The translations under genes were made by a program, and so were the position numbers. The notes under the pieces are model-generated. The model did not search any database. It had not been told where the DNA came from and saw nothing but the letters and a program-made list of their open reading frames with translations. Positions 17,483 through 63,078 of a stretch of 64,000 nt of DNA are shown piece after piece. The stretch is from Mytilus trossulus (taxonomy: Eukaryota): NCBI RefSeq assembly GCF_036588685.1, contig NC_086385.1, positions 47,577,216 through 47,641,215 of the forward strand, given 5' to 3'. Numbering within the stretch: position 1 is the first letter of the stretch; the number at the start of each line of letters is the position of its first letter.

Positions 17483-17591
17483 ATGAAGCAATCTGTTTGT
17501 GTTTTATTCTACTTGATTCTGCTTTCTTTATTATTTGTGCAGTGCCAAACCAGACTTATTGATGTGTTATTTGAAATCAACGACAATAGAG
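17483..17591 (+). CDS. Secreted prepropeptide A1, exon 1 (signal peptide + acidic propeptide)
   Basis: MKQSVCVLFYLILLSLLFVQC-QTRLIDVLFEINDNR followed by a phase-1 donor G|GTAATG. Paralogous to 35671-35779. Confidence 0.85.
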
Positions 17592-19683
17592 GTAATGTTA
17601 TTTAACGAAAATGAATTATATGATGTGTAATCTTAAATTCTATATAAAAAAATGCAATGATTTAATTTGAATTTTAAAGAAAATGTTGTGATAATAATCA
17701 TTGTATGTAAGTAATATAGCATATGTGGTGAATTTAGTGAAAAGTTTACAAAAGTTTCAATTTCAAATTATTTTCAATATACATCTCACTCTGAGGCAGT
17801 TTGTTTTTCTCAGTGTTAATTTCATATGACGTTTTACGTCGGCTATTTCTTTTTTTTTTTATTACTTTCGTACATTGCATCAACGTTGTAAGTTTCAAGT
17901 TCACTTATACGGTGTGAGTGCCATCTTGATTTTTTTTTTTTTTTGCACTCTTAATATCTACTGCTGTCTTTTAAGAACGGTACTTATCCTTTGTGGTTAT
18001 ATTGCTCTTCAACTGTTTCGAATTTCATACATCCTTGGCTATGTGCATGGCAGTGTAACATATGGGTTAAGTAAAATTTTATAGAAATTAGGAAAGATGT
18101 GGTATGATTACCCATGAGACACCTATTTACTGGTGTTATAAACGAAGTAGAAGAAATCAATCATTGCCTTCAACAATGAGAAAAACCAATACGGTATAGT
18201 TGTCTGTAAAAAAATCCGAAAGTTTGCGACACCATTCGAATGAGCAAATTAACGCCAAATTAATAACCAAACAATTAACGAAAAATAAGAATGACAGATA
18301 TGCATCAACGATAACCACTGTACAGTCTTCTGACTTGGGACAGGCAAATACAGAATATTGCGGGGTATACATGTTGCTGAGGGCTTATAATAAAAACAGT
18401 TGTGTAACTGCACAACATATATAATAAATTGTGAAAAGAAGTTGCATAGATAAAATTGTTCTTTTCCAAAATCAAAAGTTTTATTACAGAGAAATATACA
18501 AATAAAAAATATTATAGTACATTTCGACAAGTAAATCACAGAATAACAACGAACACCTTAAATTAATTTACGACAGTACATAAGACATTAAAAAGAATTG
18601 TGAACTGTGCGTCTCACGAATGAAATAAACGCCACAAAAAGAGACGTCACAAGTTAGTTCTAAAAAATATATATATAATATCGGGATTAAGTTTTTAATT
18701 GTGTTATCAAATGTATTTTCCAACAATTACAAGAATAATATATAGAATTTGTTAGCAATTGTATAAATATTGTATTTACTAACAAAGTATGTGTTTTTCT
18801 AAATCAAACTGTGTAAAAACAAACAAAGCAAGTGCATAAACTTCTTTAAATCAAAGATCATAAAATGAACTAGGTTATTGAAAAATAGACACGTGCAATG
18901 GATAAAGCTATAAACCCTTCAGTTGTGAACAAGTGTCAGCCACTGAAACATTACACCACACGATAAGCATGGTAATCGGATACAAGTGTATACCACTGTA
19001 AACTGTCCTTAAGTACAGACAACAAAAGAATAGAACTAGTTAATTATTTGAATACAGTTTATATATGTAGCAATACGTCTATTGATTAGAATAGCACAGC
19101 ATTGATTTGCAATTATTTATATCAATTGTGTTGCTTGGATTAATACCTTGTAACTGTTACGTGTAGTAAGCCGTTTAATTTCTGTGTCATTTTGCTCTTG
19201 TGGAGAGTTGTCTCATTGGCAATCATACCACTTCATCTTTTTTTTATATTTGATATATACAGATCTCAGAACCATGGTTCATGACAATATTAAGCCTTAC
19301 AAAAAAGGAAAATCCATGACAAACGCTTTGCTTGATTTCGAATGAGCAGTTAAACATTTAAAATAAGGCAGAAACCAAGGCCCCAACAACCTCATTCAGA
19401 GTTGGCCTTTAAAGGATTCAGCTGTTCGATGTCCTTTTTGGTTATAGCTTCTCAATGTTTTCGGCCCGTATACATCCTTGGCTTACAAATTTTCGGATTT
19501 TATCGTTTTCTATGAAGGTAAAGTCTTATGCATGGAATTTAAAACGTGTTTTTTTTAAATTTTATTTTTAGTTATTTTTATCAATTTTACAGAGAAAGGA
19601 TCAATTCTTGTTTTTATTTGGATCCTCAATACTCATTATTATCATTTTATCATTATTATCATTATCCTAATTTTCATTTATAG

Positions 19684-19808
19684 ATGATACAAGTTATCCT
19701 TCCATCAACAAGAGAAATACTGGTTTTAGATGTCCAACTGGCTTATCTCCCAGAGAATGTTATAATCAGTTAATGACAGTATGGATCAGGCGTCTGATTA
19801 AAACATGA
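19684..19808 (+). CDS. Secreted prepropeptide A1, exon 2 (KR site + 30-aa mature peptide); precursor 77 aa
   Basis: Acceptor ttttcatttatag, phase matches exon 1. Reads (D)DTSYPSINKR-NTGFRCPTGLSPRECYNQLMTVWIRRLIKT*. AATAAA at 19924-19929. Confidence 0.85.
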
Positions 19809-22066: not shown

Positions 22067-22975
22067 TTAAGGTAGATCATAAGTACATACTTTTAAAGAT
22101 ACAATTTTCTTATAATTTGCCAAAATGAGGATTTAAGTATGTTTTTTTTTTTTAAATATAATAAAAAGTATGAGTCACCGTACTATTTGTCATGCTAAGA
22201 GATGTTGAAAATTGCTTAAAGTTAGTTAGATTGTTTATGAAAAAACTAATTTGCGTGCATAAAAAAATTCTATGCGATAGAATTTTGAAATAAATTGTTA
22301 GAAGATACTTATTATTATATGTTTTAAGAAAATAAAAAGAAAAAATGGTGTTACTGAACTCATTTTCTGGCAAGTAAAATAAAAATTGCCCTATTATACC
22401 AGTATAATAATTTTACTTTAAGAGTTGTCTCCCCTTAAATGGCTCATATGAAAAAAATGATTCTTAAACAAACAAAACAGATATTTTTTAAATACTTTGT
22501 ATAATATGATAAATCACCATGTTTTCTTCTTATAAATAGACAGTCTAACCATTGAATTGCAAATATATCTGCAAAGTTGCAGATTTGCGCAAATCACTAG
22601 ACCGGTTTTGTTCTGTGATTGTACAATCCAAGATGGAGGTACACAATTAATCTTCCGTAATGAAGGCTTGTTTTCCCACTTTAGAATATTTCTATTCATT
22701 GACACCATTATTTTTTTTCTGGCTTCATCGACTGATAATCTTTTAAGTGCATGATCTAATTCAAAATCATGAGGTTTGTTTCACAATAAATATTCCTATT
22801 GTTTTTTTTATATTTTGAGAGTCAATACTAAAGTAATCATTAACTTAATTGATTACTTTTAGAAAATGTGTAATGTCGTCGCATAATTGACGATGTAATT
22901 TCATTGCAAGAAGTCGAAACAATCGCTGGTGAGTGATGTCACATTTAAAATTCGAATGTATTTACTACGTTTAAA
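22067..22975. mobile_element. Probable Kolobok-like MITE
   Basis: Begins ttaa-ggtagatcat and ends tatttactacgt-ttaa, a weak inverted repeat with TTAA flanks. Confidence 0.35.
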
Positions 22976-27300: not shown

Positions 27301-27635
27301 GAATTAATTTTGCTAAACCTTCTTTGAAATCGTTAAAATAACTTGAATAAGGTGTAACAACAATGTGAATAATAACAGAAATGATCAGAAATCATATCAC
27401 AGAGGTTATTTTTCAATGTTCACGTCAAAACTTTCCTTAATCGATTGTTTGTTCAAGTAAACTAACGTTCTTCAAAGCCCATTTTACGAACATTGCACCG
27501 TACGATTTTTTGACGACAAGTCAAAATTTTAAGTTTAACCTTGGAACTACCAATACTGTGAGTTATAGCCGTATAGTCTGAAAGACAATTAAACTCCTTA
27601 AATAAGCGTCTTTTCCTGACTTGGTCACCGTACTA
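24334..27635 (-). mobile_element. Decayed Academ-like DNA transposon
   Basis: Minus-strand relics DMATE*TVIK..GLGGTVGITNQKSALVRW (about 26720-26812), CDRYD..IKS (about 25970-26000) and FPAAYVLTGCDANLSLFGVG (about 25445-25505). Imperfect TIRs tagta(c)gtgacca...ctata(c/t)ggctata at 24334-24391 and 27565-27635. Confidence 0.7.
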
Positions 27636-28250
27636 TATCATTTTATTAAAAACTATTGTATTTGTTCATGTAAATGATTGCTACTGATATAACTAAATAT
27701 TTAACAATAGCAAAGAAGTTTAAAACTGTCGAATGTTTTTCACATCTCTCTAACCAGTGTATCGTTCTGTTCTCTTTGTATATTATTACTTTTACTTTAG
27801 TTTTTAGTTTTCATCGGTAAAGTATTATGTTAGTCAAAATTATTATGACGTAAACTTACGTACTTCAAAGCCCCTTTTACGAAAATCGCACCGTACGATT
27901 TTTTGATGACAAGTCAAAATGTTAAGTTTAATCTTTGAACTACCAATACTGTGAGTTATAGCCGTATAGTCTGAAAGACAATTAAACTCCTTAAATAAGC
28001 GACTTTTCCTGACTCGGTCACCGTACTATATCATTTTATTAAAAATCATTGATTTTTGTTCATGTAACTGTTTACCACTGATATCACGAATACGTTTTTA
28101 ACAATAACAAAGAAGTTTAAAACTGTCGAATGTTCTTCACATCTCTCTAACCAGTATATCGTTCTGTTCTCTTTGTATATTCGTATTGTTACTTTTACTT
28201 TAGTTTCCATTTTTCATGGATAAAGTATTGTGTAAGTCAAAATTACATTG
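27466..28250. repeat. Tandem duplication, unit about 395 bp, spanning the right end of the Academ-like element
   Basis: 27466-27850 aligns with 27860-28250 (cttcaaagccc..ttttacga...gtcaaaatta). Confidence 0.9.
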
Positions 28251-29002
28251 ACGTCGTCACAGCATTTATTTAAAGTAGCCTTTCAATACCGTCATAATCA
28301 TGATAATTTTTTGAACTAAAATGGTGAAAATACTTTTTGATATTTCGTTTTTTATCAATTTTGTTGTATGCATTTCAGGATTATATATACGTCACTGTTG
28401 AGTCCTGTGGTGTTGTGAATGGAAGATGTTCGTTGTTATTCTGTGTTACTATTCATTTATATTATTTATCTATGCATTGCTCATTGCTGAGTGTTCTTAT
28501 GTTATGTTGGACTGTATTTCTGTCACGTACTGTTGTCATTTAAGCGAAACAAATTAACATTGTCATATTAAAAGAGGGATGAAAGATACCAAAGGGACAG
28601 TCAAACTCATAAATGTAAAACAGACTGACAACGCCATGACTAAAAATGAAAAAGACAAAAAGACAAACAATAGCACACATGACACAACATAGAGAACTAA
28701 AGAATTAACAACACGAGCCCAATTAAAGGGATGTTTCGCTAGCCATTTTACCAGGTTCAACCCACTATTTGTTCTCAAAATGTCCTGTACATAGTCAGGT
28801 ATATTGCAATTGTTATCGAATAGACTGTTTCTATGTATATTTGTGTTTGTTTTTGATGCACTTCAGTGTTTCTGTTGTTCCATTGTTTTCCTTTTATAGC
28901 TGATTGGTTTCTTTCGTTTTTAGTTTGTATTGATTTGTTTTCCATCCATATATTTGTGATTGTTGAATATAGTTATCAAAAGTACCAGGATTACAATGTT
29001 AT

Positions 29003-29046: not shown

Positions 29047-29139
29047 TCATATCAAAAAAGTTAAAAAGCCAAATAAATACAAAGTTGAAGAGCATTGATC
29101 TTTACTGTTTAGTCGACTTGTGGTTATATCGATTTTATG

Positions 29140-32100
29140 TAGCTTTTTCTTTGTTTGTTTTGTTATTTTACTTTTTTGGTGGGAACACATCCGGTTATTG
29201 TGTTATTGTGATATTGAAAGTAAATCTTTTTATTCTGGTCAATTTTTTGGCTAATGTGTGTTTTGTTCCCATTTGCGTCAAAATAGAATACTAGTATACT
29301 GTAACGTCATTTAAAAAAATGAATTTCCTCCTTCTTTATCTGGACTATGGACCGGCAGTTTGCACTGGAGTAGTTAAGTTATTTTCATTCATTGTATAGA
29401 AAATTTTAAAACATAAAACTATGTACTGCCGGACAATATAGATATACTATGAAAGGCTGAAATGTTCATTACAAACACGAACTGTCTGCGGCTGAGTTAT
29501 CCTTCTGCATATTTCTCATGCTTTTGAACGCAAAAATCTTTTTTCCTGACACATGTCTTTTTTAGACTGCTGCTGCTGCATGGGTAATTGGCAATGTTAT
29601 GTATGGTGTAGCTTGAAGATTCACTATATTTTTTGAAAATATAAACATTGAATACAATTGTTCCATTATTGGTTCGTTTTGCGGTAGAAGGTTACAAAGC
29701 ACTGTCATCAAATATATTTTAACTTTTAAAATGTATGATAAATATTTGTACAAGTAAATTTGTGCAAATGAGTGCTACATATTGAGATAAAATATATTTG
29801 ACGAAAATGATAACATTGATTAACAGTTATTTGCGCAAAAATTGGCAGCTGAAGACGTTTTTTAACAATTTTACCCAATATGTCTTTGTTTTGTTCACAG
29901 ATATTTTTCAATATAATTAAACTTTATGTGACTGTCAAACAAATGAGAGGTTTCTCTATATATTAAACCAGGTTTCATTCCATAAGCAAATACCTACATC
30001 TTGTCAGATTTATGACAAGTTATTATCCATTCGTTTGGGCTTTCAAAATCTGAGCCACCTATATCGATATTTTGACTAATTAATTTAGCATTAGTTACAC
30101 CTAGGGTTTATTCGGGGGATAGGTTAAGACAATGAAACAAAAACTGCGTGAAACTTTGAGGAATATAGTCAAGGATGAGAAATTGACGTTCGATTGGCTT
30201 TGCGATAGAGATTCTACAGCTAAAGCTAAACGTTGAAACCAAATCACTGCATCTTCGAGATTATTAAGTAACAGTTTAAAGCAATTTTTGGCAACACAAT
30301 CCCTGTCTATCCTATGTGGTTCGTGTTGCTTATTCTGTAGTGATCTATGTTGTGTCTAGTGTACTATTGGTTGTCTGTTTGACTTTGCATTAGCTTTGGC
30401 ATTGTCAGTTTGTTTTCGAACTATGAGTTGCACTATCCTCCTGGTATCTTTCGCCTCTCTTTTATAACCTGAAGCAAACAATAGCAAAATACTTTTTTTT
30501 GTTTCTATTATCACTATGAACTCAATGACTGTTCTAGTTCACGCCATGAGTTTCGTCCCCTAAAAATAATGACTAGCTTTGATTGACAAAAATTGTATGT
30601 TTCATTTATATTGAGCATTTATTCAGAAAGTCTTCAGGAAATTGCGGATATTTTTAGCATTCAGAACTTTTGGAAAGAGCAAAAGAGAAGAACAATGAAA
30701 CAATTCAGAGTGGCCCTATGAGCTCTTAAAACTTGCTGTTATTTTTAAAACACAGTAGTAAGAACCAATATAAGAAAAATAAGACGGATTGCTGTTAATC
30801 TGTTAATTTTCTTTTTCAAATTATGAATGGGAGGATCATGGTAATTTTACAGCCTTAACCGATCTTAACAGGAATCAGTTTACACGGTACAGTGAAATTG
30901 AATAACGATGCATAAATTGTTAACCTTTTAAGCGGATTTTGTATATTTTAACAGGTATTGTCACCTGATACACATGTGAGCTATTTCATCAAGTGAAACG
31001 TGAATACTAAATTGTCTTTTATTTAGTTGGTGTTTTCCTGATATAAGATATTTGACTTCTGTATGTATCTACACCATTCGGTTTTTTTCTGGTTTCCCCT
31101 TCACTATAAATCTTTGAGGTTCATGACCGAAAAAGTCAGAAGATTTGGTAAACTGTAAACAACAGTGTTATTTGGCATAAAACAAAAATTTAATGTAACT
31201 AATTCTTATTTTGTAGTTTGAGTTGCAAAATTGATTTTTTGTTTCGTAAATTAAAGCATAACTAGATATTGAAAACTTTATAATCTCTTAATTATTGTAG
31301 CTAGTTTTTTTGTTTGTTTTCTTGTTTTACTTTTTTCGATTCGAACACATCCAGTTATTGTGTTATTGTGCTATATTGAAAGTAAATCTTTTTATTCTGG
31401 TCAATTTTTTTGGCTAATGTGTGTTTTGTTCCCATTTGCGTCAAAATAGAATACTAGTATATGGTTACGTCATTTAAACAAAATGAATTTCTTCCTTCTT
31501 TATCTGGGCTATGGACCGGCAGTATACACTTGAGGAGTTTAAGTTATTTTAAGTCATTTAATAGCAAACTTTAAAACATAAAACTATGTACAGCTGGACA
31601 ATATACATGATATAGATATTATATTAAAGGTTGAAATTTGGTACTCATTACAAACACGCACTCTCTGTGGCTGAGTTCTCCTTCTGCATATTTCTCATGC
31701 TTTTGAAGGCAAAATTTCTTTTTCTAAAAAAAAATGTCTTTTATTTTCACTGCTGCTGCATGAGTAGTTGGCAATTTAATGTATTTTGTAGCTTGAAGAT
31801 TCTCTTTATTTTTCCAAAAGCATAAACAAAGAATACTTCTGTTCCATTATTGGTTCGTCTTGCAGAACATGGGAATAAAACACTGTCATTAAATATATAA
31901 ATAAGTAAAATGTTGCAAATGAGTGCTACATGTTGGTGCAATTAATACATTTGATATAATATATTTGACGCAAATGATACCCCTTTAAAACAGTTATTGG
32001 CGCAAAAATTACCTATGCCGTCTATATGCCTTTTTGTTTATCTTTGTTGACATATTTGTGTGTTTTTACTGTGATTAAAAGTTGACTGCTGTACATGTCT

Positions 32101-33936
32101 TTTGACAATTTTACCAATTATGTCTTTGTTTTGTTCACGCATATTTTTCAATATAATTAATAAACTGTATGTGACTGTCAAACACGTAAGAGGTTTCGCC
32201 AGATATAAAACCAGGTTTGATCCAATAAGAAAATGCCTACACCTAGTCCGATTTATGACAAGTTATTATCCATTCGTTTAAGCTTTGATAATCTGAGCCA
32301 CCTATAACGAATTAATTTAGCATTAGTTCAATCTAGGGTTTAGTCGTGGGATAGTTAAGGACAATGAAACAAAAGTTGTGTGGAACTTCGAGGACTATAG
32401 TAAAGAAAGTGATATTGACTCTGAAATGAGTTTCGAACGGCTTTGTTATAAAGTTTCTACAGCTAAAATTAAACTTCGAAACCAAATCATTGCATCTTTG
32501 AGATTATTTAGTAACGGTTTTAAGCAATTTTTGGCAACAAAATTCATATTTATCCCGTGGGGATCGTGTTGCTTATTCTTTGGATTTCTATGTTGTGTCT
32601 AGTGTACTATTGGTAGTCTGTTTGTCTTTGTTTTAGCCTTGGCATAGTCAATTTATTTTCTATGAGTTTGACTATCCCTCCGTTATCTTTCGGCCCTTTT
32701 TTTTATCACCTGAGGCAGATTATAGCAGAATATGTTTTTCATCCGATTAATCACTATGAACCCAATGAAAGTTTTGATTTCGCGTCATAACTTTCGTCCC
32801 CTAAAAATAATTACTCTTTTTTTTTTTTTACAACAAATAAATATTCTTTATTCATCAAATTGCTTGTTACAACTTTACTTCATTGTCCAAGCTTCAATAA
32901 AGTATCCCTGTGAAATACTTTCTGAGTATCCAGGAAAATACACAGAATATAAATAAAGATAAACATTATTTGTTTTCCATCAATTATATCAATCTTTTTA
33001 ACTTTATGAAAAATACATTATGAGATATTGTTTTGTTCTCATTCATAAACCTTCGTAGTTCCTTTATAAACATAGCATACACATCTAAAAATTTCAGTTT
33101 TTGTTCTGACACATAGTACGACTTGTAAATACAAAAACCTAAAATTGTCAAGAAATAATTTAAACCGTTATATCCTTGATCTGATATTTTGTATCCCAAA
33201 AAATAATTACTCACTCTTATTGTCAAAAATAGTATATTTCATTTATATTGAGCATTCATTCAGAAAGTCTTCAGGAAATTGCGGATATTTTTAGCATTCA
33301 ATACTTTTGGAAAGATAAAAAAAAGAAGAACAATGAAACAATTCAGAGTGGCCCTATGAGCCCTTCAACAATTGTTGTTAATTTTAACAGACAGTAGTTA
33401 GAACCAATATTAGAAAAATAAGACGGATTGCTGTTAGTCTGTTTATTTTCTCTTTCAAATTATGAATTGAAGAATCATGATAATTCTACAGCCTAAACCG
33501 ATTTAAACAGGAATCAGTTCACACGGTACAGTGACATTGCATACCGATACATTAATTATTAACATTTTAAGCGGAGTTTGTATATTCTAACACGTGTTTC
33601 CACCTGATACACATCTGAGCTATTTCATCAAGTGAAGTGTGAATACTAAATTGTCTTTTATTTAGATGGGGTTTTCCGGAAGTAAGATATTTGACTTCTG
33701 TATGTATCTACACCATTGTTTTTTTTCTGGTTTTCCCTACACAATAAATCTTTGAGGTTCATGACCGAAAAAGTCAGAAGATTTGGTAAACTGTAAACAA
33801 CAGTGTTTTTTGGTATAAAACAAAAATTTAATGTAACTTATTCTTATTTTGTAGTTTGAGTTGCAAAATTAATTTTTGTTTCGTAAATTAAAGCATAACT
33901 AGATATTAAAATCTTTATAATCTCTTAATTATTGTG
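29140..33936. repeat. Tandem segmental duplication (unit 1 about 29140-31297, unit 2 about 31298-33936)
   Basis: Collinear similarity from gaacacatcc(g/a)gttattgtg to ctcttaattattgt. Unit 2 carries an extra LINE insertion. Confidence 0.9.
32817..33198 (-). mobile_element. 5'-truncated L1/Tx1-like LINE 3' end with poly(A) and a 14-bp TSD
   Basis: TSD aaaaataattactc at 32803-32816 and 33199-33212. Poly(T) on the + strand at 32817-32829, with AATAAA on the minus strand. Absent from the duplicate unit at about 30570. Encodes GYK..NYFLTILGFCIYKSY. Confidence 0.8.
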
Positions 33937-35670
33937 AGAGGAGTGGTGCATATAATTGTTTTTATTACGCATGAAAAGTCATATTTTGCACGATAATTAG
34001 AAAACTACACATTAATAGAAATTTGAGATAAAGTATAAAAGATAGCTCTTATACATGCTATACGCTAACAGATAAGAAAAGGAAAAACATGTGTTCACCA
34101 GGCTGTTTTTTTATGCTTCATAATAACATAATTATGTGAATTCAAAACACATTCTAGGATGAAAATTACTTTATCTGAGCTATCGTCCCTTTTAGCTAAG
34201 TAATCTTCCCTTATGTATAAAAAATAAATAAATGAATCAACCTTAAATAACTATAATTGTTGTTTGGAATAATACAGTCGTAAATATGACGAAACAAAAA
34301 ATGTTCTTCAATAACATGCGCTCATCCATGCATAGCCTCTGTTTTAAGATAAGTTAGATGAATTTAATTGAATGAGGTATTGTAAATATTTTTCAAAGAA
34401 AAGGGTATTCATATAATATGTAATTGTGATGGCAATTATGTATTTAAAACGTTCTTGTTAAATCTTATCTTGTACATGGTGAATTGAAGCAATGATAATG
34501 TCGGACGGAAATGCACCACCTTTATCAATATTTTCATAAATTACCAAATTTTGGTTTTACCTAACTGTTATAAAATTAAGGGTAAAGCCCGTTGAAATGA
34601 AGTGGGAGTTGCTTTATCTTAAAGTTTTTAAACATACAGCCAAATGCCTACGCCAAATCATTGAATATATGACATATTTTGGTAAATGTTTGAGGTGATT
34701 TATGATCACGACATTGCTGTTAATTTATAACTTAAATATCAATTACGTTTATGGAAACTAAATAAGACACATGCCTAGCAAACCAATTGAGAAATTTTCC
34801 CACTGTAAGAAAAGTATGAAGGACATCATAGTCCACAAAGTTTGAAACAAATATCAAAAATTAGAAACACACAACTTTTTTAAAAAAATCTGGAATTTCC
34901 CTATCGTTAGCGTTCTGCGTATTTACACAATCCTGGATTTTAGCATTCCTGAAGAAGGTAATTCCATAAAAATTCTACAGGACACTATTAACTTGAATGC
35001 AGTGTAATTATATTCTCGCAACAAGAACTTTCATTCGTGGAATGTTTTGACTGTAGCTTGAAATAGAATGACGAAATATGTACTTTTAACTGTAAGACGC
35101 CTTTCATGTAGACGCACCTAATTGCACTTCCTTAGGAGGTTATGCGAGTATCTGGCGTTTGATTTTCTTCCTGTGTTTAACAACAGATTAACAAATTAAA
35201 ACACCAGTTAACTACTCATACAAATAGGAAATAGTCCTGTTGTTGCTTATATAATCTATTGGTTGTTATATTTTATGTGTTGATGGAGGTACTCGTTTAA
35301 ACATAACTTAGAATTGTCTTGACCTAACGGGGTTTTGAGTAAGGGCTATGTATAGAAATTACTATTTTTCTATTTTTGATTTACCTGCGATATTGCTTCG
35401 GTTTTTTTTTTTGTTTGACACCAATAACGTGTTTAATCAACTATTTTACTTCCTTTTTTATTTTGGAGTTATCGATCTGGATAAATATGAATAGTATAAT
35501 GTAACCGTGTAAGTGTTAATTGAAATCAGACGAGAGTGCGATTAAAAAAAAACTCTGGTCGTGCTAACGCCTCCAAAATGATTGGACGAACGTGGTCAAA
35601 ATTGTAGATAAATTACTATTTAAACTAACAAAAGAATTATACATTTTATCAAACCTCGAACTGATCTGAT

Positions 35671-35779
35671 ATGAAGCAATCTGTTTGTGTAATATTCTAC
35701 TTGATTGTGCTTTCTTTAACATATGTACATTGCCAAAGTAGATTTTTTGATGTTTTAGTTGAAATAGACGATACTAAAG
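35671..35779 (+). CDS. Secreted prepropeptide A2, exon 1
   Basis: MKQSVCVIFYLIVLSLTYVHC-QSRFFDVLVEIDDTK followed by a phase-1 donor G|GTAAGG. Same length as A1 exon 1; similarity to A1 fades just after the donor. Confidence 0.88.
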
Positions 35780-36792
35780 GTAAGGTTATTTCTATGAACA
35801 CTATGTTTCTCTTTACTTTAAACAACAGAGCCACCATTGGTAAAGGTGTAAAGAAGAACATTTAAGAAATTGTATCGTCACATATTTAGTGTGAACATTT
35901 TCTTATCTATCTTATAAATACAAATTTGTAAATATGTTTATGTTATTACTTCAGCAAGGAATCTTTTTGAAAGAAAAACAAATTGAGTTTAACTATTATA
36001 GAACATTATGAAGAACGTCAAGTGAGTAAAATATATGTTGACAAAACGCATCTGTCTATTAAGTTGATCTGCAAAAAGTTTTCACTAAAATTGACGTCTT
36101 CGGACATGGTTACCCTTTAAACATAGTTAATCAAATTAATAAATAGACGAAAAGATGGCGTATAGACTGAAAATACTAACACAAATTTGAATAAATTCAA
36201 AATTATAATATCAAAATTGGAGAGTGAGCTTGCTTATTTAAACAACTTGCAAACACCTCTAAAATATATATTTCTTGCATTCAACATGTTAAGACTCAAC
36301 AGAGAAATTGTCAGCATGAAGAGCATAGTTTCTGATGTATTAAATGATACAATTACATGTGTTCATTGTTCATAAAGATTTTGATCATACTTTTTTTTAA
36401 CAAATTATCGAATCAAGAACGGAAAATCAGATCGAGCGTAATATATTTATCTTTACTTTTTTACTATTATTTTAAATGTTATATTTTAAGCTAGGATATT
36501 GACTTGATCACTATAATCATGCATAATAATTTCAATTGAATTATTGTGTAATTATCCTACAGAGTATATCGGAGTAACGTATTTATTTTCACAATATTCA
36601 AAACTGGATTGGCATATTCTAAAAATACAAACTGGGATACCGACATAAATTAGGCCGTTAGTTTTCTCGTTTGCATTGTTTTACATTGACATTTCGGAGC
36701 CTTTTATATCTGATTAGGTTGAAATATTTTTGAAATGCAAGCTAAGAAATCGACTTAATTACTATAACCATGTATATCAATTTCAATTATAG

Positions 36793-36917
36793 GTGATACA
36801 AGTTATATTTCCATTGACAAGAGAAATGCTGGTTTTAGATGTCCAGTAGGATTATCTCCCAGAGAATGTTATAATCAATTAATGACAGTATGGATCAGGC
36901 GTCTGATAAAAACGTGA
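36793..36917 (+). CDS. Secreted prepropeptide A2, exon 2; precursor 77 aa
   Basis: Acceptor tttcaattatag. Reads (G)DTSYISIDKR-NAGFRCPVGLSPRECYNQLMTVWIRRLIKT*. ATTAAA at 37031. 3'UTR conserved with A1. Confidence 0.88.
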
Positions 36918-40400: not shown

Positions 40401-40618
40401 ATGAAGGTTCTTTTATGTGCTCTCTTCTTTATTTTGTGCCATGGGCTTCAAGCGAAACATGAAGGTTTCCTCATTTAATGGTAAAGAAAGGATGGGGATT
40501 TCAAGCATCAATACCTTGTCTTTATCATGGAAAATTGTACTTTATTCCCGTCAAATTTACACGTTTCTGCTTCAGACATCCTAACTGTGAATGTAATGTG
40601 AACAGACTCGGTATATGA
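40401..40618 (+). pseudogene. Secreted peptide family B, copy B1 (4-Cys type), 1-nt frameshift
   Basis: As written: MKVLLCALFFILCHGLQAKHEGFLI*. Restoring one base in the T run at 40466-40468 gives a 72-aa precursor ending ...PHLMVKK-GWGFQASIPCLYHGKLYFIPVKFTRFCFRHPNCECNVNRLGI*, collinear with B2. Confidence 0.8.
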
Positions 40619-45272: not shown

Positions 45273-45506
45273 ATGAAGATTCTTATATGCGTTCTCTTCA
45301 TCGTTATGTTAAATGGACTCAATGCAGAAAATGAAATAACTCCTCGCTTAATGGTTAAGAGGACATGGGGGTTTAGAATATCATTCGCATGCCATTATAA
45401 AGGACGGTGGTTCTACATACCTGTTGGACTTGCTAGATTGCTATTACGTAAGAATTTTGTGAAGCACATTACAAATAAAGACAGGACACAAATTATTGAC
45501 ATTTGA
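45273..45506 (+). CDS. Secreted cationic prepropeptide family B, copy B2 (77 aa)
   Basis: MKILICVLFIVMLNGLNA-ENEITPRLMVKR-TWGFRISFACHYKGRWFYIPVGLARLLLRKNFVKHITNKDRTQIIDI. Signal-like N-terminus, dibasic site, mature part about +7. Same length as B4 and B5. Confidence 0.78.
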   Translation: MKILICVLFIVMLNGLNAENEITPRLMVKRTWGFRISFACHYKGRWFYIPVGLARLLLRKNFVKHITNKDRTQIIDI

Positions 45507-49120: not shown

Positions 49121-49227
49121 TTAAGTTTGAATACCTGTATTCTTTTTGATACATCTTTTCTTTAGTTTTTCATTTTTCTAATGTTGTTATGTTTTTGCGG
49201 ATAAATTTGTAAAAATAGCTGGTTATC

Positions 49228-50686: not shown

Positions 50687-50913
50687 ATGAAGTTTCATTT
50701 AGCTGTTCTCGTCATTATATTGTGTCATGGGCTCCATGCAAAAAGAAAACTATTCCTCATCTAATGGAAAAGAAAGCATGGGGATTCAGAGCACAATTAG
50801 CTTGTAATTATAATTGAAAATGGTACTCTATTCATGTACATGATGTAGGACTTACCAAATTATGTTACAGACATCCCAAATGTTATTGTTCTGTGAAAAG
50901 ATTTCGAAGATAA
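50687..50913 (+). pseudogene. Secreted peptide family B, copy B3 (4-Cys type), frameshift plus nonsense codon
   Basis: MKFHLAVLVIILCHGLHA.., a 1-nt deletion near 50740-50750, then PHLMEKK-AWGFRAQLACNYN*KWYSIHVHDVGLTKLCYRHPKCYCSVKRFRR*. TGA at 50815-50817 where B1, B2 and B5 have GGA. Confidence 0.8.
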
Positions 50914-52821
50914 ATGATATGTTCAGCAAAAATTCTGTTTCAAATATTATGTACATAAAAAAAAAGGGATTTTTTTTTTGACAATCAGATTTAGACCAAT
51001 TCAATTACTGGTGCACATTTGATTCTATGTGAACATTCATCAAATAAATATCAACGATTCCCACATGGACTGTATGACAGTGTATGTTGGTTTTTTTTTT
51101 TTAAATTAAAGGATATCAACGTAAATAGAAAAACGAAGGAAACAATACATATTCTATAGGCAACATTACTTTTTTTAAACCCAAATAACGCATAGCCGCT
51201 CATGTCTTCGATTTAAAAGTAAAATTTGGTAAATTATCTGGTAAACGAAACCAAGTTATAGACGGAAGAAATACCGAACCCTGAGATGTTTATTTCTGTA
51301 CTTTGAACACTATAATACCGTGCAACTAAAATCCAGTTCTTTATTTTCTGATACAATTCAACAGAACTAATTTTACTTGTTGGACAAATTTATTGTTCAT
51401 AAGTGGTTAACAGTCAGATATGAATCATGGAAGGACTTCCAAGTAAGAACAACGTTTCATGAAAAGAAGTTGTAATAAATATTATATACGCCCTGAACTG
51501 TATGAATTGTTACTAGATCAGTCATTTTTAATTATAACGTTTAATTATAATGGACTGAATAAGCATCGCTGCTTGACAGATAACTGTATGACTCGAACTA
51601 TATACTCTTCCTGCTCGTTTGAATATAAAGTATCTAAATACATTGTTCTACAAATAAGAGAGCCACGGTATACAAATCTGATTATAACATCGTCGAAACT
51701 GGTAACATCTTCAATACTGAAGTGTTTAAGTTCTGAACTGTTTTCAATAGTTTTACTGCACATTTGTCAACTGCAAAAAAAAAGTTGTACTAAATTAACC
51801 TATCATTAAAGAAGAAATGCATTTGTAACATTAAGTCATTTATAAATAATTATTGTACGGGATACAATCGAATTTGAACCGAGAAGTCATCGCTCTTTAC
51901 TAGAAAGGTGAAAGATACCAAATGGATAACTCAAAATCATAAGTTGAAAACAAAATGACAACGCCATGGCTTTGTTTGTCAGGTACCGGTGTATTCTATA
52001 CATTATGTTTGAACTACGACATTCTGTAATAGACCCTTTACGAGTTATCGTCTATTCAAATGTGATGTTTTTTGTCGGAAATTAGTATTATAGTATAAAA
52101 CCTTGTAAGACTAATGACCCCCCTCCCCATCCAATGACCTCCTAAATGATACTGCAACTGTCACAATTCACATTTAAAGTGTGTCATTGCTACACTAGAA
52201 AGGAATACATAAGTCATGTTTATGATTTTTTTTCAATGCCGTTATTCTACCCCGATTGATAAAAGAAAAATAGCAAGGAAAATAAAAAAACGGAAAGTCC
52301 TGTATCAATAGTCAAATCTAAATGCTCAAGCAAATGAAATGATTAGAAAACAACAATTGTCATATTCCTGACTTTGTACAGATTTTTCCTTTTGTAGGTA
52401 ATAATCGGCTAAATAAAGGCAACAGTAGTTTACAACTGTTTAATAGTCATTAATCGATTTAACTGAAAAAAAATGAGTCACAAACCAAAACCGAGGGAAA
52501 CACATCAACTGTAAGAGTAAAACAATGGAACAACAGAAACACTAAACTGTTACAAAACATGCGCTAACATACATATAGATACGGACTATTTGATAACAAC
52601 TGCCATATTCCTGGCAAAGGACATATCAAGACAAAATGTTGGTTTTACCTGGTGTTATGGCGACCAAAAGTCCGCTGATATGGCCATATTAAAGATACAG
52701 CAATAAGACAAACTAATAGTACAGTTCAGTGTTTTCCTCGGTTATTGAGGTTTTTGGTTTGTGACCCGGATTTGTTTTCGCTTCATCGGAAACACTGATA
52801 CTGAACGTTTGAAAATCCACC

Positions 52822-53140
52822 AATTTCTACATAAGAAAATCATTTCCACATAAGAAAATCATTTTCTACATAAGAAAATCATTTTCTACATAAGAAAATC
52901 ATTTTCTACATAAGAAAATCATTTTCTACATAAGAAAATCACTTTCTACATAAGGAAATCATTTTCTACATAAGAAAATCATTTTCCACATAAGAAAATC
53001 ATTTTCAACATAAGAAAATCATTTTCTACATAAGAAAATCATTTTCTACATCAAAAACTCATTTTCTACATAAGAAAATCATTTTCTACATAAGAAAATC
53101 ATTTTCTACATAAGAAAATCATTTTCTACATAAGAAAATG
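52822..53140. repeat. 20-bp minisatellite (attttctacataagaaaatc), about 16 units, internally palindromic
   Basis: Directly visible tandem array. Each unit contains ATTTTCT-acata-AGAAAAT. The array runs into the dispersed repeat tgtaccaagtcagg... Confidence 0.95.
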
Positions 53141-55627: not shown

Positions 55628-55861
55628 ATGAAGATTCTTATATGCGTTCTCGTCATCGTTTTGTTATATGGACACAATGCAGGAAATGAAATAATTCCTC
55701 ATATAATGGCAAAGAGATCATGGGGATTTCGTTTATCATTCGCACGCCATTATAAAGAACGGTGGTTTAACATCCCGGTACGACTTGCTAGATTGCTTTT
55801 ACGTAAGAATGTTTTAAAGCATATTATAAACAAAGACAGAACACAAATTATTGACAGTTGA
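55628..55861 (+). CDS. Secreted cationic prepropeptide family B, copy B4 (77 aa, Cys-free mature region)
   Basis: MKILICVLVIVLLYGHNA-GNEIIPHIMAKR-SWGFRLSFARHYKERWFNIPVRLARLLLRKNVLKHIINKDRTQIIDS. Mature part about +8. Confidence 0.75.
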   Translation: MKILICVLVIVLLYGHNAGNEIIPHIMAKRSWGFRLSFARHYKERWFNIPVRLARLLLRKNVLKHIINKDRTQIIDS

Positions 55862-56684: not shown

Positions 56685-57062
56685 AGAATAACCATACATT
56701 GTCTCGAAATATCAATGTCATTTGTACAAGGCTTAGCAACAGGTAGAAAGCGATGCTGTGCCGAGTCGAGGACAAATAACAATGATATTTCGAGACAATG
56801 AATGGTTATTCTGTAGATACTTCAACTCTTATAACTGTTCAAAAGGAAGAATTTAGGGTAAAAAGCACCATCTCTTAAATTTGAGCGGAAGGCGTAAAAT
56901 TTCAACGAACCTGTATGTTTTATTGATATCATAAATAAAACTCTACGGAAACACATTGTCAACGTCATAAACAAGGTGATATACGGTCAGTGACTGTATA
57001 TCACATATGAATATACGGTCAATGCAATTTGACTGCTTAAATAGCACAGCTGCAGTATATAA
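56685..57062. mobile_element. Hairpin-bearing non-autonomous element
   Basis: 41-bp inverted arms at 56685-56725 and 56772-56812 (3 mismatches). Homology to the B2 downstream flank (about 46320) breaks off here. Confidence 0.6.
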
Positions 57063-58199: not shown

Positions 58200-61100
58200 T
58201 TACTGTTAACAGTAGTAACGCTAGTTATCCAGCGGGTTTTTAGAACATAAACGGGTGGAGTAAATATGTAAATAGTGATAAAAATAGTTTGCTTGCAGCA
58301 TGTATTGCGGAACGTAATTTTCATATATTAGGGCTAGATCAAACTCATCTGATTGGACAAGCCGGTATCGTCATAAATGGCTACACATGGATAGGAAAAA
58401 AACGTAAACAATTACACGTGCGTGCTAGAGCTGGCTCAGGAGGCGTTGGTTTAATGGTGCGAAATGATGTTTTATCAGATTATAATAATACTAAAAGAAA
58501 CGATTTAGTTGATGGAATTATATTGATACGCTTTTCCGAGAGAATTAACGCAGAGTCTTGCTTTTATATTTGTGTGGTTTACCTACCGACGGTCAATTCT
58601 GCACGGTAAGTAAACTTTCATGAATTTCTAGATTCGCTTACGTCGGATATGTATACAATACCAAATGGTAGTCCTTTTTACTTATGTGGGAACTGGAACA
58701 GTCGGGTTGCAGATATACCTGATTGAATTACGGGAATTGATAATTTACCTAAGCGACAGGTTGTAGATTTTACACACAACACGTATGGAGATATTTTGTG
58801 TGATTTCTTAGTAATATTAACTGTTGCATCTTAAATGGAAGGAACTCTTTACATAATGATTTTACATATGTTTCAACTAGAGGGGCATCAGTCGTTGATT
58901 ACTGCATTGTACCGTATGAGAAATAAACTTAAGTGGACAATTTTGAAGTTATTAAAGCTCAACAAGTAATTGGTAGTGTATTTAAAATAGGGGAGTATGA
59001 ACCTAAACAGATACCTGACCATTCATTATCATGCTTGACTTTTAGTACACAAATTTGTTTGAAAGAAAAAGTAGCATCAAATTATATATTATTAATTTGA
59101 CACTCGCAAAATACCAAATGAGTGGATGGCAGATGTCAAAATAGTTGGAAAATTAAATCATTTTTTACAGAACTAAGAATCATCAGGAGTTAACCAGAAA
59201 GAATTGGACAATAAATATAATGATTTGGTCACAATAATTCATGGCGAAATGAACTCTAAACTTACTAAACGAAAGGTGTTTCACTTGAATGGTCTTAATA
59301 ATAAACGTAGGAAATTAAAGAGAAAAAAACATGATGGAACGATAATCTCACTGCGCTCTGGAATGAAGTATGCGAAGCCGATTGTCAATTGAATAGAAGC
59401 CATAACCAGGATAAAAAGAACTTGCGTCATATTTTTGTAAGCAAACGTTAACGTTTTGATAAAAATTGTCAACGGACAAAAAGACAATATTGGTACCGAA
59501 GTCAAGATAAACTATTGGATATACAAACTAGGGACCCGAGAGTTTTCGAACAACATTGGCAAGATTAGTGTCGGTAGTGAAAGACAAAAGACCATACCCA
59601 TGGAAGTTGTACTAGAAGATGGTTCAATTTGCTCTGACACTTACATTATTTAAAAAAAATGAAAGACTCATGAAATCTTTTGAATTGTGATGATGTGACG
59701 AATGTAAATAATAATATATCAAATAATATTTTAGATGTTGATCTACATGTAGATTATGAAATTAGTATTTAAATTTGAAGTGTTAAAAGTATTAACACAA
59801 GCTTAAGAGGGCAAAGCGTCAGGGATCGATTTGATAACTGTAGAATTGTTTAAAAATAATTTGTTATTACATGTTTTGCATAAATTATTTAATATATGTT
59901 TTAAATTTGGTAAAATTCCATCTGTATGGTGTAAAGGGATAATTACTCCTCTCCCAATGTGTTCTACATCGGATCCAAGGAATACTTTGTCTTATCGGGA
60001 AATAACTTTGGCACCGTGTGTCTATAAATTATATTGCAGTATTTTAAACAATAGATTGGTAAATGGTTAGATTATAGGGATATTTTACATGATGAACAAA
60101 ATAGGTTTCGTAAAAATCGAAGTACTTTTGATCATTTAAGCACAATTACGTCCATTATTGAGACAAGGAAATTGAAAAAAATGTCAACTTTAGCTGTCTT
60201 TGTAGATTTTAAGAATGCGTATGATGCAGTTAACAGGAGATTATTGTTTAAAGATTAAATGATCTTTAATGATCTTGGAATCAGTTCAAATGGTTGAATA
60301 CTATTAAAACGATTTACTCTCAAGTTGAATGTGCAATTAAATTGAACGGAAACCTAACTGAGTGGTTCAGTGTTAACTCAGACTTAAAGCAAGTGTGTGT
60401 TTTATCACCTATATTATTTAACATTTTTATTAATAGTTTAGTCACAGACATAAAATGTAGTCATCGGTATTGATATCAATGGTGAGAAAATGGTATTTTA
60501 TTATATGCAGATGATATTATATTAATTGCTGAAAATGAAAATGATATACAATTAATTCCAGATGTTCTAAAAAGATGGTGTTAAGATAAATTATTGAATG
60601 TTAATTTTGAAAAGACAAAGATTGTGCATTTTAGAAATCCTTCTGTACAACCAACAAATGCAATATTTTTACTTGGTGAAAATCAATTGTGTATTGTATC
60701 AAAATATCAATATCTTGGCTTATTAATGACTGTGTTTGTTGATTATAATGATATGGCAAAATCGGTAGCCAGGTCAGCAGGGAGAGTATTAAGTTTACTG
60801 ATTGTAAAGAGTAAAGCACATGGTGGTTTCTACTTTGATACATATTCCAAACTTTTTAATAGCTTAGTCTGATCAGTCATAAGTTATGGTGCAACCATTT
60901 GGGCACCAGAGATTTTTCTTGTATTAATGCTGTCCAGCACAGAGTTATCCGGTTTTTTATTGGTCTTGGTAAATATACACCTAGTAATGCCATAAATTGG
61001 GATATGGGTTGGAAACCTCCATGTGTGAAGCAGTGGAGTTGTGGTTTTAGACATTGTACTAGAAGTAATCTTATGTCAACATATTGGGTGAATTATAAAG

Positions 61101-61969
61101 TATTTCAATGGGCATCTAGAAATGCCATTAATAAAAAGAAAAACTAGAGTTATTGAATTATGACAAAATTTAGAGAATGGAATGTAGATTTATACACTAA
61201 TTTAGATAATGTATTGCATAAAAATGATATTGCACTGTTAGAAGATTTGTTATTTGAAAATAATTAGATAAATTGGCCTGATAGAATATTGTCATAAAAT
61301 GTTGGAAAAAAATTACATTCTTATAAATTGCTTAAATATATTTTTGAAACAGAGATTTATTTTAGGAAGAACATTTCAATACGATACAGAAGTGCATTTA
61401 CTAAATTTGGGTGTGGTGTTGTCCCCTTGCGAATAGAAACAAGTCGCTGTAAATGTAAGAGTTTGCTTTGTATGCAACGATCAAATTGAAGATGAGAAAC
61501 ATGTTATTTTAGACTGTCCTCTGTATGCAGATTTACGTGAAAATTTATTTTATGAAGTTAAAAGAAGTATTGGTGATTTTAATATTTTATCTGATGATGA
61601 TTAGTTTATATATCTTTTTAGAACTACTGATTGTTTTGATATGGTTGCCAAGACCTGCTTTAAGATTTAAAGTAGAGGAAATTGTTTTTTATATGCTTGA
61701 TTGTTGGTTATGTTTTTATAAACTTGAAATATTTTATAGACATAATCACTGTTGTTGTATGGTTTTACATGACACAAATGTTTTTATAGACATGATAAGA
61801 ATATAGTTATAATTTATATTCATTTATATAGTCTCTCATAATTCTTTATAGAATGGCACTTGTATTTTAATTCATAAAATTACTGTTTTATTTAATGTAT
61901 ATATTATGATGATTGTATTATATGTATTACAATTGGTGAGACTCTAATAAAATATTGAATCTGAATCTG
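58200..61969 (+). mobile_element. Degenerate RTE-X-like LINE with near-complete ORF2 (APE endonuclease + RT)
   Basis: QTHL..GYTWIG..GSGGVG..VVYLP (APE, 58289-58609), YREITLAPCVYKLY (59831-60070), YADD at 60504-60515, KTKIVHFR..YQYLG, a C-terminal EDEKHVILDCPLY and an (aatctg)n tail. Many disablements. Confidence 0.88.
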
Positions 61970-62844
61970 CATATGACAGAATGAGTTGTTATCAATTCGT
62001 TTGACCTGTTCGAGATTTTTGATTCGCCATTTGATAAGGGTCTTGCCGTTTTGATTTTTCTAAGATTTCAGGTTTTTTTTTATGAAGTTCTGCAGATTTT
62101 AATTTATTTTACTGTGAAGGAAATTATTATAAAAGGTATCAACTCTGGGGTATCGTATCAGCTTCGAGATATAAACCCCATATTCATAAAATAAGAACGA
62201 TGTAAGAGGAGATACACAGGAGTGTATCCAACATATTGAGTAAAAACCGTCATAACCATAAAGAAAAAGGCATGAGGTTTACTTATTAAGGTTGATAATT
62301 GGGTTTCTACTTCCATGAACAATTTGCGATCTATGCTATCAAAAAAGAGGCAATAGCAGTATATCGATATTCAAATATATTAAATTCACTCACTAAATAC
62401 AAACTAAGGTTAAAAAAAACCAAGGGAAATCTCATGAACTGATTGTCAACTCTTAGCGTTATCGACCTACTGGGGGTGTAAAAATCATGATTTATTCAGG
62501 CAAAATACGTGTTTAGTTATGGCTCAACCCACTTAAACCGGACATTGATTCTCAATAACATCTTACCATATATGTTTATTTGGTATAACCTTGCATCGTG
62601 ATCTACCTTCAATTTTAAACCAAGGAATTAGAACATCACGAACAGTCCTATAATCCAATAAATCTGAAAACAACAACACGCTTTGTCTAAATGGGAACTA
62701 GAAGAACACGATATGTATATAATGTTACAGCTACAATAAATATACTCTAAAAGAGTGTTAGTTCCTAAAGAGTTGGATTTAAGAAATAGATAAAAGGAAA
62801 TTTTAATGAATGGCCGATCATTTACTTGTTTACTTTCATGCAAC

Positions 62845-63078
62845 ATGAAGATTCTTTTTGTTGTTATCTTCATTGTTTTGTTACATGGACTCAGTGCAGA
62901 AAATGAAACAATTTCTCATAAAATGGCAAAGAAAACATGGGGATTTAGAATATCATTCGCATGCCATTATAATGGACGGTGGTTCTTCATTCCTGTACGA
63001 CTTGCAAGATTGCTATTATGTAAGAATTTTGTGAAGCATATTATAAACAAAGGCAGGACACACATTATTGACATTTGA
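62845..63078 (+). CDS. Secreted cationic prepropeptide family B, copy B5 (77 aa)
   Basis: The start ATG in caacATG at 62845 is homologous to the other copies. MKILFVVIFIVLLHGLSA-ENETISHKMAKK-TWGFRISFACHYNGRWFFIPVRLARLLLCKNFVKHIINKGRTHIIDI. Confidence 0.78.
   Translation: MKILFVVIFIVLLHGLSAENETISHKMAKKTWGFRISFACHYNGRWFFIPVRLARLLLCKNFVKHIINKGRTHIIDI

What the first reader, a model, noticed from the sequence alone, without database searches (positions are those of the whole stretch)
17483..63078. Cluster of two unassigned secreted-peptide families sharing a dibasic-x-x-G-F-R mature N-terminus
Seen in sequence: seven co-oriented prepropeptide loci in about 46 kb, each signal peptide + short propeptide + KR/KK. 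The predicted mature N-termini are KR-NTGFR and KR-NAGFR (family A), and KR-TWGFR, KR-SWGFR, KK-TWGFR, KK-AWGFR and KK-GWGFQ (family B). The families otherwise differ in exon structure and Cys pattern. Established knowledge: mussels carry tandem, presence/absence-variable clusters of convertase-processed defence peptides (defensins starting GFGCP, mytilins, myticins, myticalins, CRP-I), but neither Cys spacing here matches those as I know them. Inference: a previously undescribed locus of defence or signalling peptides, possibly sharing an ancestor or a processing/recognition motif.
Basis: partly seen in the sequence, partly recalled or inferred. Interest (0 to 1): 0.88.

Follow-up and report, generated by a model that had tools for sequence, protein, structure and literature searches.

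The report
Two unrelated orphan mussel peptide families
This mussel DNA holds side-by-side genes of two unrelated, unnamed families of small predicted secreted peptides: one is conserved as far as a limpet and is likely a hormone, the other is a fast-turnover, positively charged, cysteine-bridged peptide that is likely defensive, and the short start motif they share is likely a coincidence.

Summary
The seven KR/KK-x-x-GF[RQ] sites are real, but only five loci are intact: B1 and B3 are broken. The shared GFR start is not a family trait: 6 of 18 B loci and 2 of 9 A loci carry it, and the families show no homology. Family A (two exons; ring C-P-x7-C, then an amphipathic helix Y-x2-L-M-x2-W-x-R) has 9 loci here, a spliced contig in a probable RNA run, relatives in two Mytilus species and the limpet Patella, and a precursor with three dibasic-flanked copies. 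It is likely an undescribed molluscan neuropeptide or hormone. Family B (one coding exon, C-x16-C-x5-C-x-C, cationic) has 20 loci on five contigs and continues about 60 kb past the window. Three window copies (B2, B4, B5) share a deletion that removed three cysteines and the stop codon and recruited 3' UTR; their mature region is still under weak purifying selection. B is likely a defence peptide. Neither family matched Pfam, PDB or the mussel antimicrobial-peptide and neuropeptide descriptions I read. No function was tested.

The parts
17483..17591 (+). A1 exon 1: predicted signal peptide (about 21 aa) and start of propeptide; phase-1 GT donor
19684..19808 (+). A1 exon 2 coding part: rest of propeptide, KR at 19710, predicted 30-aa mature peptide (ring C-P-x7-C plus helix), stop; AATAAA at 19924
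35671..35779 (+). A2 exon 1: predicted signal peptide and propeptide start; transcribed sequence reaches at least 35562
36793..36917 (+). A2 exon 2 coding part: KR at 36819, mature peptide differing from A1 at 2 of 30 residues; the splice from exon 1 is seen in a contig of run X1
40401..40618 (+). B1: broken copy (frame shift between signal peptide and propeptide, near 40464); its mature part keeps the four-Cys array C-x16-C-x5-C-x-C
45273..45506 (+). B2: intact 77-aa ORF of the deletion clade; predicted 47-aa mature peptide, 1 Cys, charge +7; TATA-like site at about -129
50687..50913 (+). B3: broken copy (frame shift near 50748, in-frame TGA at 50815, 9-nt insertion); four-Cys type, sister of the intact copy downstream of the window (L002)
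55628..55861 (+). B4: intact 77-aa ORF of the deletion clade; predicted mature peptide with no Cys, charge +8
62845..63078 (+). B5: intact 77-aa ORF of the deletion clade; predicted mature peptide with Cys1 and one new Cys in the recruited tail, charge +7

Best explanation
The window is part of a roughly 105-kb array in a Mytilus-type mussel where two unrelated gene families lie interleaved: family A likely encodes a convertase-released peptide hormone or neuropeptide, and family B likely encodes a convertase-released cationic, two-disulfide defence peptide whose copies are gained, broken and remodelled by tandem duplication. Family A, shown: two-exon gene; a spliced contig in a probable RNA run; conserved core C-P-x3-[SND]-x2-[DE]-C-[YF]-x2-L-M-x2-W-x-R in mussels and a limpet; one precursor with three dibasic-flanked copies. 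Family A, inferred: signal peptide and acidic propeptide are removed at KR; the two cysteines close a 10-residue ring; an S-x-x-E cap starts an 18-residue helix whose face Y11/L14/M15/W18/L22 binds a receptor. A secretin-type (family B1) GPCR is my best guess because ring plus amphipathic helix is the calcitonin layout. Family B, shown: 20 loci, C-x16-C-x5-C-x-C, net charge +3 to +10, broken copies, and one clade (B2, B4, B5) that lost Cys2-Cys4 and gained a 21-codon tail from 3' UTR. Family B, inferred: Cys1-Cys3 and Cys2-Cys4 bonds hold a hairpin-helix-strand fold that acts on microbial surfaces; the deletion clade is a near-linear cationic offshoot. The xxGFR start is local to recent copies and arose twice.
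For: No A-B homology; motif in 6 of 18 B and 2 of 9 A loci. A: contig of run X1 joins 35562-35777 to 36791-36957, which fits the predicted intron. Profile search gave 21 hits, 15 with the motif, among them Mytilus galloprovincialis XP_076092933.1, M. coruscus CAC5410959.1 and Patella caerulea KAK6190903.1, all unnamed. A profile from 8 loci of this genome alone scores the Patella protein at 35.0 bits and two repeats of P0010 at 33.2 and 30.0, against at most 5.8 and 3.4 for 500 shuffles each. P2, C10 and W18 are invariant in 21 of 21 core rows, and conserved residues lie on one helix face; helix predicted at residues 23-40. Core charge runs from -2 to +6, unlike a membrane-lytic peptide. A1/A2 mature region: 5 synonymous, 3 replacement changes, p 0.02-0.04. 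B: spacing 16-5-1 in 11 of 18 loci, pI 8.7-11.6; 3 of 11 copies on this contig broken; a two-Cys member keeps exactly Cys1 and Cys3; model strand-strand-helix-strand, pLDDT 71; deletion clade support 96/95 (98); its mature region 13 synonymous and 16 replacement changes, omega 0.33-0.46, p 0.004-0.03. Established mussel pattern of clustered cationic Cys-rich secreted peptides (PMC10138031, PMC4558851).
Against: No activity, tissue or peptide data for either family. B mature regions have dN below dS in 8 of 8 pairs, so the positive selection reported for CRP-I (PMC4558851 abstract) is not seen on average. The recruited tail alone is not significantly constrained (p 0.07-0.21) and the pre-pro region of the deletion clade has omega 1.0-1.4; B4 has lost its last Cys, so these three may be decaying. 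The A transcript evidence is one contig at depth 3.75, 88-95% identical, from a run only guessed to be RNA. A lacks the C-terminal Pro-amide of calcitonins and any amidation signal; 3 of 9 A loci (contig C5) have no dibasic site in exon 2. Nine A copies with a recent cationic tandem set is more than a classical hormone needs. The organism of P0010 is unknown and its middle repeat scores only 3.1 bits. The receptor class is a guess from shape.
Confidence: 0.55

Rival explanations
1. Both families are defence peptides: A is a disulfide-capped amphipathic helical antimicrobial or immune-modulating peptide that sits with B in an immune gene cluster.
For: A1 mature peptide has charge +4 and an amphipathic helix; three A copies lie within or beside the B array, with a C1q-domain exon about 40 kb upstream; some mussel defence peptides act like cytokines (PMC10138031 introduction).
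Against: The A core is conserved from mussel to limpet with invariant P, C and W, charge is not conserved (-2 to +6), and one precursor carries three dibasic-flanked copies. Six of nine A loci lie on other contigs, and the two on C2 lie megabases from the B loci there.
Confidence: 0.2
2. Family B is not antimicrobial but a receptor- or channel-directed peptide (pheromone, paracrine signal, toxin-like modulator) or a component of a secretion such as byssus, mucus or periostracum.
For: dN below dS in 8 of 8 pairs; strict Cys spacing across five contigs; language-model neighbours are spider toxin clusters, though only at 0.76-0.80, a level the tool calls a lead only; three Gly/Tyr-rich secreted ORFs lie 3-34 kb upstream of the window; Cys-rich foot proteins mfp-16 to -19 exist (bioRxiv 837146). 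CRP-I, the nearest analogue, is called functionally uncharacterised.
Against: All mature B peptides are cationic and rich in aromatic residues; copy turnover with pseudogenes fits the mussel defence pattern; a profile of 10 B sequences returned 1 unnamed protein and no named foot protein or toxin.
Confidence: 0.25
3. One reading: A and B share an ancestor, or xxGFR is a common processing or recognition motif.
For: Seven neighbouring copies carry it; both families use KR/KK; the signal peptides of A1 and B2 both contain CVLF.
Against: 6 of 18 and 2 of 9 loci; hhalign probability 0.2%; different exon structure, Cys array and predicted fold; the motif is absent from the inverted A copy inside the same array.
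Confidence: 0.07
4. All five B copies in the window are pseudogenes in decay, and only the A genes and the downstream four-Cys B copies are functional.
For: B1 and B3 are broken; B2, B4 and B5 lost three of four Cys; pre-pro omega 1.0-1.4 and tail not significant.
Against: All three ORFs stay open at 77 codons with no indel while their 3' UTRs differ by 16-20% with 2-4 gaps per 300 nt; mature-region omega 0.33-0.46, p 0.004-0.03; TATA-like and poly(A) signals kept.
Confidence: 0.3

Closest known systems
Molluscan calcitonin-type peptides (Mytilus CALCI/CALCII; scallop calcitonin/DH31)
   Same: About 30 residues, released after a basic site, N-terminal two-Cys ring; one scallop peptide printed in PMC5996578 also has C-x8-C.
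   Different: Family A has no C-terminal amidated proline, which PMC7200681 lists as conserved; it has an invariant Pro after Cys1 and a Y-x2-L-M-x2-W-x-R helix; no Pfam calcitonin hit.
iPTH / PXXXamide, ligand of cluster-B-type (PTH-like) family B1 receptors
   Same: Signal peptide, KR, single helical mature peptide; candidate receptor class for A.
   Different: iPTH has a conserved N-terminal SD and a strictly conserved amidation signal (PMC7224569); A has neither and has a disulfide ring.
Mytilus CRP-I
   Same: Signal peptide, propeptide, dibasic site, cationic Cys-rich mature peptide, tandem clusters with pseudogenes, and members that lost most or all Cys (PMC4558851).
   Different: CRP-I has six Cys (C-C-CC-C-C) and four exons with the coding region split; B has four Cys (16-5-1) in one coding exon and no average excess of replacement changes.
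Mussel CS-alpha-beta peptides (defensins, mytilins, myticins, pseudomytilins, myticofensins)
   Same: Small cationic secreted Cys-rich peptides; a C-terminal C-x-C and a Y-x-G-K/R turn occur in B and in mytilins.
   Different: Defensins, mytilins and myticins have eight Cys, helix before the hairpin, and in mytilins the mature peptide directly after the signal peptide with an anionic C-terminal extension; B has four Cys, predicted hairpin before helix, an N-terminal propeptide and no extension. The myticofensin paper itself is not in the library; PMC10138031 describes it as CS-alpha-beta.
Myticalins
   Same: Linear cationic peptides of pI above 11 resemble B4 and B5 in bulk properties.
   Different: Myticalins have the dibasic site after the mature peptide, an anionic C-terminal propeptide and often an amide; the B deletion clade has the site before it and derives from the four-Cys family.

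Membership tests
Calcitonin-type peptide (family A) | N-terminal two-Cys ring | tested here: met
   C-x8-C in 20 of 21 core rows; the bond itself is inferred
Calcitonin-type peptide (family A) | C-terminal amidated proline | tested here: not met
   No P-G-basic end in the 20 A sequences listed; feature per PMC7200681
Calcitonin-type peptide (family A) | Profile match to calcitonin family | tested here: not met
   No Pfam hit above cut-off; no calcitonin chain at E up to 10 in PDB sequences
iPTH/PXXXamide (family A) | N-terminal SD and C-terminal amidation signal | tested here: not met
Neuropeptide/peptide-hormone precursor in general (family A) | Signal peptide and convertase site before a conserved short peptide | tested here: met
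   A1, A2, A3 exon 1 and KR; 6 of 9 loci have a dibasic site in exon 2 (95); judged by eye, no SignalP/ProP
Neuropeptide/peptide-hormone precursor in general (family A) | Repeated copies flanked by basic sites in some precursors | tested here: met
   P0010, three copies, two scoring 30-33 bits and one 3.1; organism unknown
Neuropeptide/peptide-hormone precursor in general (family A) | Neuronal or endocrine expression and receptor activation | not testable with these tools
   One low-depth spliced contig, tissue not given
CRP-I (family B) | Six-Cys array C-C-CC-C-C | tested here: not met
   B array 16-5-1 against PMC10138031
CRP-I (family B) | Coding region split over three exons | tested here: not met
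   B ORFs are uninterrupted; CRP-I structure
CS-alpha-beta defensin/mytilin/myticin/myticofensin (family B) | Six to eight Cys with C-x3-C on a helix bonded to C-x-C | tested here: not met
   Four Cys and no C-x3-C in the 18 loci; arrays
CS-alpha-beta defensin/mytilin/myticin/myticofensin (family B) | Fold match to a solved CS-alpha-beta peptide | tested here: inconclusive
   Model pLDDT 71 included the signal peptide; best Foldseek E 1.3, best VIA Z 2.9
Myticalin (B deletion clade) | Mature peptide followed by KR and an anionic C-terminal propeptide | tested here: not met
Antimicrobial peptide in general (family B) | Cationic, amphipathic secreted peptide | tested here: met
   Charge +3 to +10, pI 8.7-11.6 in 18 of 18
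Antimicrobial peptide in general (family B) | Kills or inhibits microbes | not testable with these tools
   Needs an assay
Foot proteins mfp-16 to -19 (family B) | Sequence homology and cuticle-gland expression | tested here: inconclusive
   No named foot protein among hits; the describing paper is not held, so sequences were not compared

The most novel reading that the evidence does not exclude
Family A is an undescribed peptide-hormone family shared by bivalves and gastropods, with a disulfide ring and an amphipathic helix, and is the missing ligand of some of the expanded orphan cluster A or cluster B secretin-type GPCRs of molluscs; beside it, family B is a new four-cysteine fold class of mussel defence peptide caught giving rise to a cysteine-free cationic peptide by deletion and recruitment of 3' UTR.
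Probability: 0.25. Interest if true: 0.8.

Novelty: new variant of a known kind. Interest (0 to 1): 0.55.

Why it matters
Molluscan neuropeptide catalogues are thought fairly complete, yet many molluscan secretin-type receptors were reported as expanded and without known ligands (PMC7200681, 2020; one insect cluster-B type has since been paired with iPTH). A 30-residue peptide conserved from mussel to limpet is a cheap, direct candidate for deorphanisation screens. Family B adds a cysteine array not among the mussel defence families I read about, mostly missed by gene annotation (1 database hit for 10 query sequences), and its deletion clade is a clean, testable example of a disulfide peptide turning into a linear cationic one.

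Tried and rejected
Shared xxGFR motif as homology or signal: rejected. Pfam: no family above cut-off in 8 and 13 proteins. PDB sequence searches: only chance rows. Fold searches: B model best E 1.3 and Z 2.9, A model one row at E 5.3; these show neither a known nor a new fold. Language-model atlas: B gave spider-toxin clusters at 0.76-0.80 and P0010 gave assorted neuropeptide precursors at 0.75-0.80, both leads only. Word-based protein search with one intact B precursor found nothing; alignments found 1 (B) and 2 (A) unnamed proteins; only near-length proteins were searched, and the exhaustive profile search was run for A only, so B's range outside mussels is open. Sequencing runs: no RNA holder listed on record; the one run found (guessed RNA) has no cover over B1, B2 or B3, which is no evidence on expression; A1, B4 and B5 lay outside the stretch laid. 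Six of 21 profile hits (P0013, P0017, P0018, P0021, P0023, P0025) dropped as repeat artefacts, best domain at most 12.3 bits. Genome hits L078, L079, L085 dropped (no ORF with the pattern); a weak remnant at C13:47706370 (E 0.026) not counted. P0010 found no match in this genome with that query. Ten literature searches turned up no description of either family. Short-motif searches in the supplements of PMC8398477, PMC6425005 (two files cut when stored) and PMC8557429 showed no family-A peptide in the passages returned; exact motifs miss diverged or line-wrapped sequences, figures are not held, and subscription papers (myticofensin, mfp-16 to -19 originals) were not seen. Earlier scan notes: nothing.
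Full report
Observation. Self-BLAST shows these are copies of two genes, with no match between the two sets. A1 (17483-17591, 19684-19808) and A2 (35671-35779, 36793-36917) have GT/AG phase-1 introns. Of five B copies, B2, B4 and B5 are open 77-codon frames; B1 and B3 have a frame shift after the signal peptide and B3 also an in-frame stop. The genome is 1.30 Gb; one A locus is nearly identical to a Mytilus galloprovincialis protein, so the animal is a Mytilus-type mussel (inference).

Extent. Searches of the own genome and 200 kb of fetched flanks give 20 B loci (11 on this contig, 3 on C4, 3 on C2, 2 on C10, 1 on C6) and 9 A loci (3 here, 3 on C5, 2 on C2, 1 on C11); these are lower bounds. 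The array runs about 60 kb past the window and holds an inverted third A copy. A generic scan of 204 kb for signal peptide plus dibasic site returned six ORFs, all family B.

The shared motif. In the 18 B loci tabulated (two left out: one broken, one found later), xxGF[RQ] follows the basic site in 6; W at position 2 is commoner (15 of 18). In A it occurs in 2 of 9 loci. Profile-profile comparison gives probability 0.2%; 1 of 16 local DNA comparisons reached p 0.01, uncorrected. The motif marks recent neighbours, not either family.

Family A. A 389-nt contig of run X1 lies in two adjacent pieces, 35562-35777 and 36791-36957, the predicted splice given the two-letter overlap; depth 3.75, 10 and 20 differences, run only guessed to be RNA. 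A profile of 9 sequences against 1.84 billion proteins gave 21 hits; 15 carry the motif and 6 are repeat artefacts. Three carry species names, all uncharacterised: M. galloprovincialis XP_076092933.1, M. coruscus CAC5410959.1 and the limpet Patella caerulea KAK6190903.1. A profile built from 8 loci of this genome alone scores the limpet protein at 35.0 bits against 5.8 for the best of 500 shuffles. P0010, organism unknown, has three copies, each after a dibasic site; two score 33.2 and 30.0 bits, the middle one 3.1. Over 21 core rows (one copy with a 3-residue insertion left out; some rows are near-duplicates) P2, C10 and W18 are invariant, Y/F11 is 21 of 21, D/E9 20, R20 19; Y11, L14, M15, W18 and L22 fall on one helix face. 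AlphaFold2 predicts one helix, residues 23-40 of the exon-2 frame, pLDDT 70. Core charge varies from -2 to +6. A1 and A2 mature regions differ by 5 synonymous and 3 replacement changes, p 0.02-0.04. Deep conservation of a hydrophobic face, free flanks, free charge and a multi-copy precursor are what established neuropeptide families look like (my knowledge), so I read A as a secreted signalling peptide (about 65%). Ring plus helix recalls calcitonin, and one scallop calcitonin has the same C-x8-C (PMC5996578, passages), but the amidated proline is missing (PMC7200681, passages) and so are the iPTH marks (PMC7224569, passages). A secretin-type receptor is a guess (about 25-30%); that paper reports expanded cluster A and B receptors in molluscs.

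Family B. The normal mature peptide is 36-45 residues with C-x16-C-x5-C-x-C in 11 of 18 loci; the rest are the three deletion copies, one with a 3-residue insertion, one with two extra Cys, one without Cys4 and one broken. Charge is +3 to +10. A member on C6 (26.2 bits against 11.9 for the best of 1000 shuffles) keeps only Cys1 and Cys3, which suggests Cys1-Cys3 and Cys2-Cys4 bonds (inference from one copy). The model is hairpin, helix, strand, pLDDT 71, with no fold match. B2, B4 and B5 form one clade (96/95) sharing a 55-59 nt deletion that removes Cys2-Cys4 and the stop, so the frame reads 21 codons into sequence that is 3' UTR with stops in B1. Their mature region has 13 synonymous and 16 replacement changes (omega 0.33-0.46, p 0.004-0.03 for kappa 1-4; UTR kappa 1.7), no indel, while UTRs differ by 16-20%. 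Against this, the tail alone is not significant and the pre-pro region is neutral. Among intact copies dN is below dS in the mature region in 8 of 8 pairs, so there is no average sign of the positive selection reported for CRP-I. A defence role (about 55%) rests on charge, size, turnover and the mussel precedent, not on a test. Upstream neighbours are three Gly/Tyr-rich secreted ORFs and a C1q exon, which leaves a structural-secretion role open.

Comparison with print. Read: PMC10138031 (passages, introduction), PMC4558851 (passages), PMC5577615 (abstract, section 2.1; 45, 118), PMC7168163 (passages), PMC11767717 (passages), PMC11925980 (one reference line), PMC8398477 (passages, sections 2.6-2.7, motif search in its supplement; 56, 73-75), PMC6425005 (passages, motif search in supplements, two files cut; 78, 80), PMC8557429 (motif search in supplement only), PMC5996578, PMC7200681, PMC7224569 and bioRxiv 837146 (passages; 77, 111, 117, 107). 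B fails the defining arrays of CRP-I, CS-alpha-beta peptides and myticalins; A fails calcitonin and iPTH. Ten searches found no description of either family; figures, subscription papers and cut supplements may hold one, so I put the chance that A is unnamed in print at about 70% and B at about 75%.

Verdict. Real genes, wrong link. The array is an ordinary mussel birth-and-death cluster that happens to hold two families without names. The better lead is A, an old and likely signalling peptide; the second is the B deletion clade. Interest 0.55; new variant of a known kind.

Noticed in passing
L032:6570-7058(-), L034:6048-6617(-), L035:6330-6821(-) (3-34 kb upstream of the window): Three tandem ORFs for secreted Gly/Tyr-rich low-complexity proteins starting DDYYGG after a signal peptide; no informative Pfam hit; look like structural or adhesive secretion proteins.
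   Followed up: partly
L033:7205-7651(+): C1q-domain exon (Pfam E 4e-24) between the Gly/Tyr-rich genes.
   Followed up: no
L006:1603-1733: The B copy closest to the deletion clade carries a 65-nt tandem duplication overlapping the stretch that the clade deleted; both ends lie near a short TGCTA repeat, so this spot may be prone to slippage.
   Followed up: partly
L017 (G000:C13:47670068-47671211, minus strand): Third A gene, inverted, inside the B array, with intact exon 1 and donor; its mature start lacks GFR.
   Followed up: yes
L018-L020 (G000:C5:62645068-62664838): Three tandem A genes with a longer C-terminal tail and no dibasic site in exon 2; two have KRK in exon 1; a galactosyltransferase ORF lies next to them.
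   Followed up: partly
window 1157-1666(-), 16146-16814(-), 58244-61147(+): Fragments of non-LTR retroelements (RVT_1 hit at 1157-1663); one such fragment ends about 600 nt upstream of A1.
   Followed up: no
window 27457-28254, 29138-33935, 52821-53139: Local duplications without long ORFs: a 400-nt tandem pair, three roughly 740-nt duplicated blocks, and a 60-nt tandem repeat.
   Followed up: partly
L007:1438-1659: B copy with two extra Cys, each next to Cys1 and Cys2, which could form a third disulfide.
   Followed up: no
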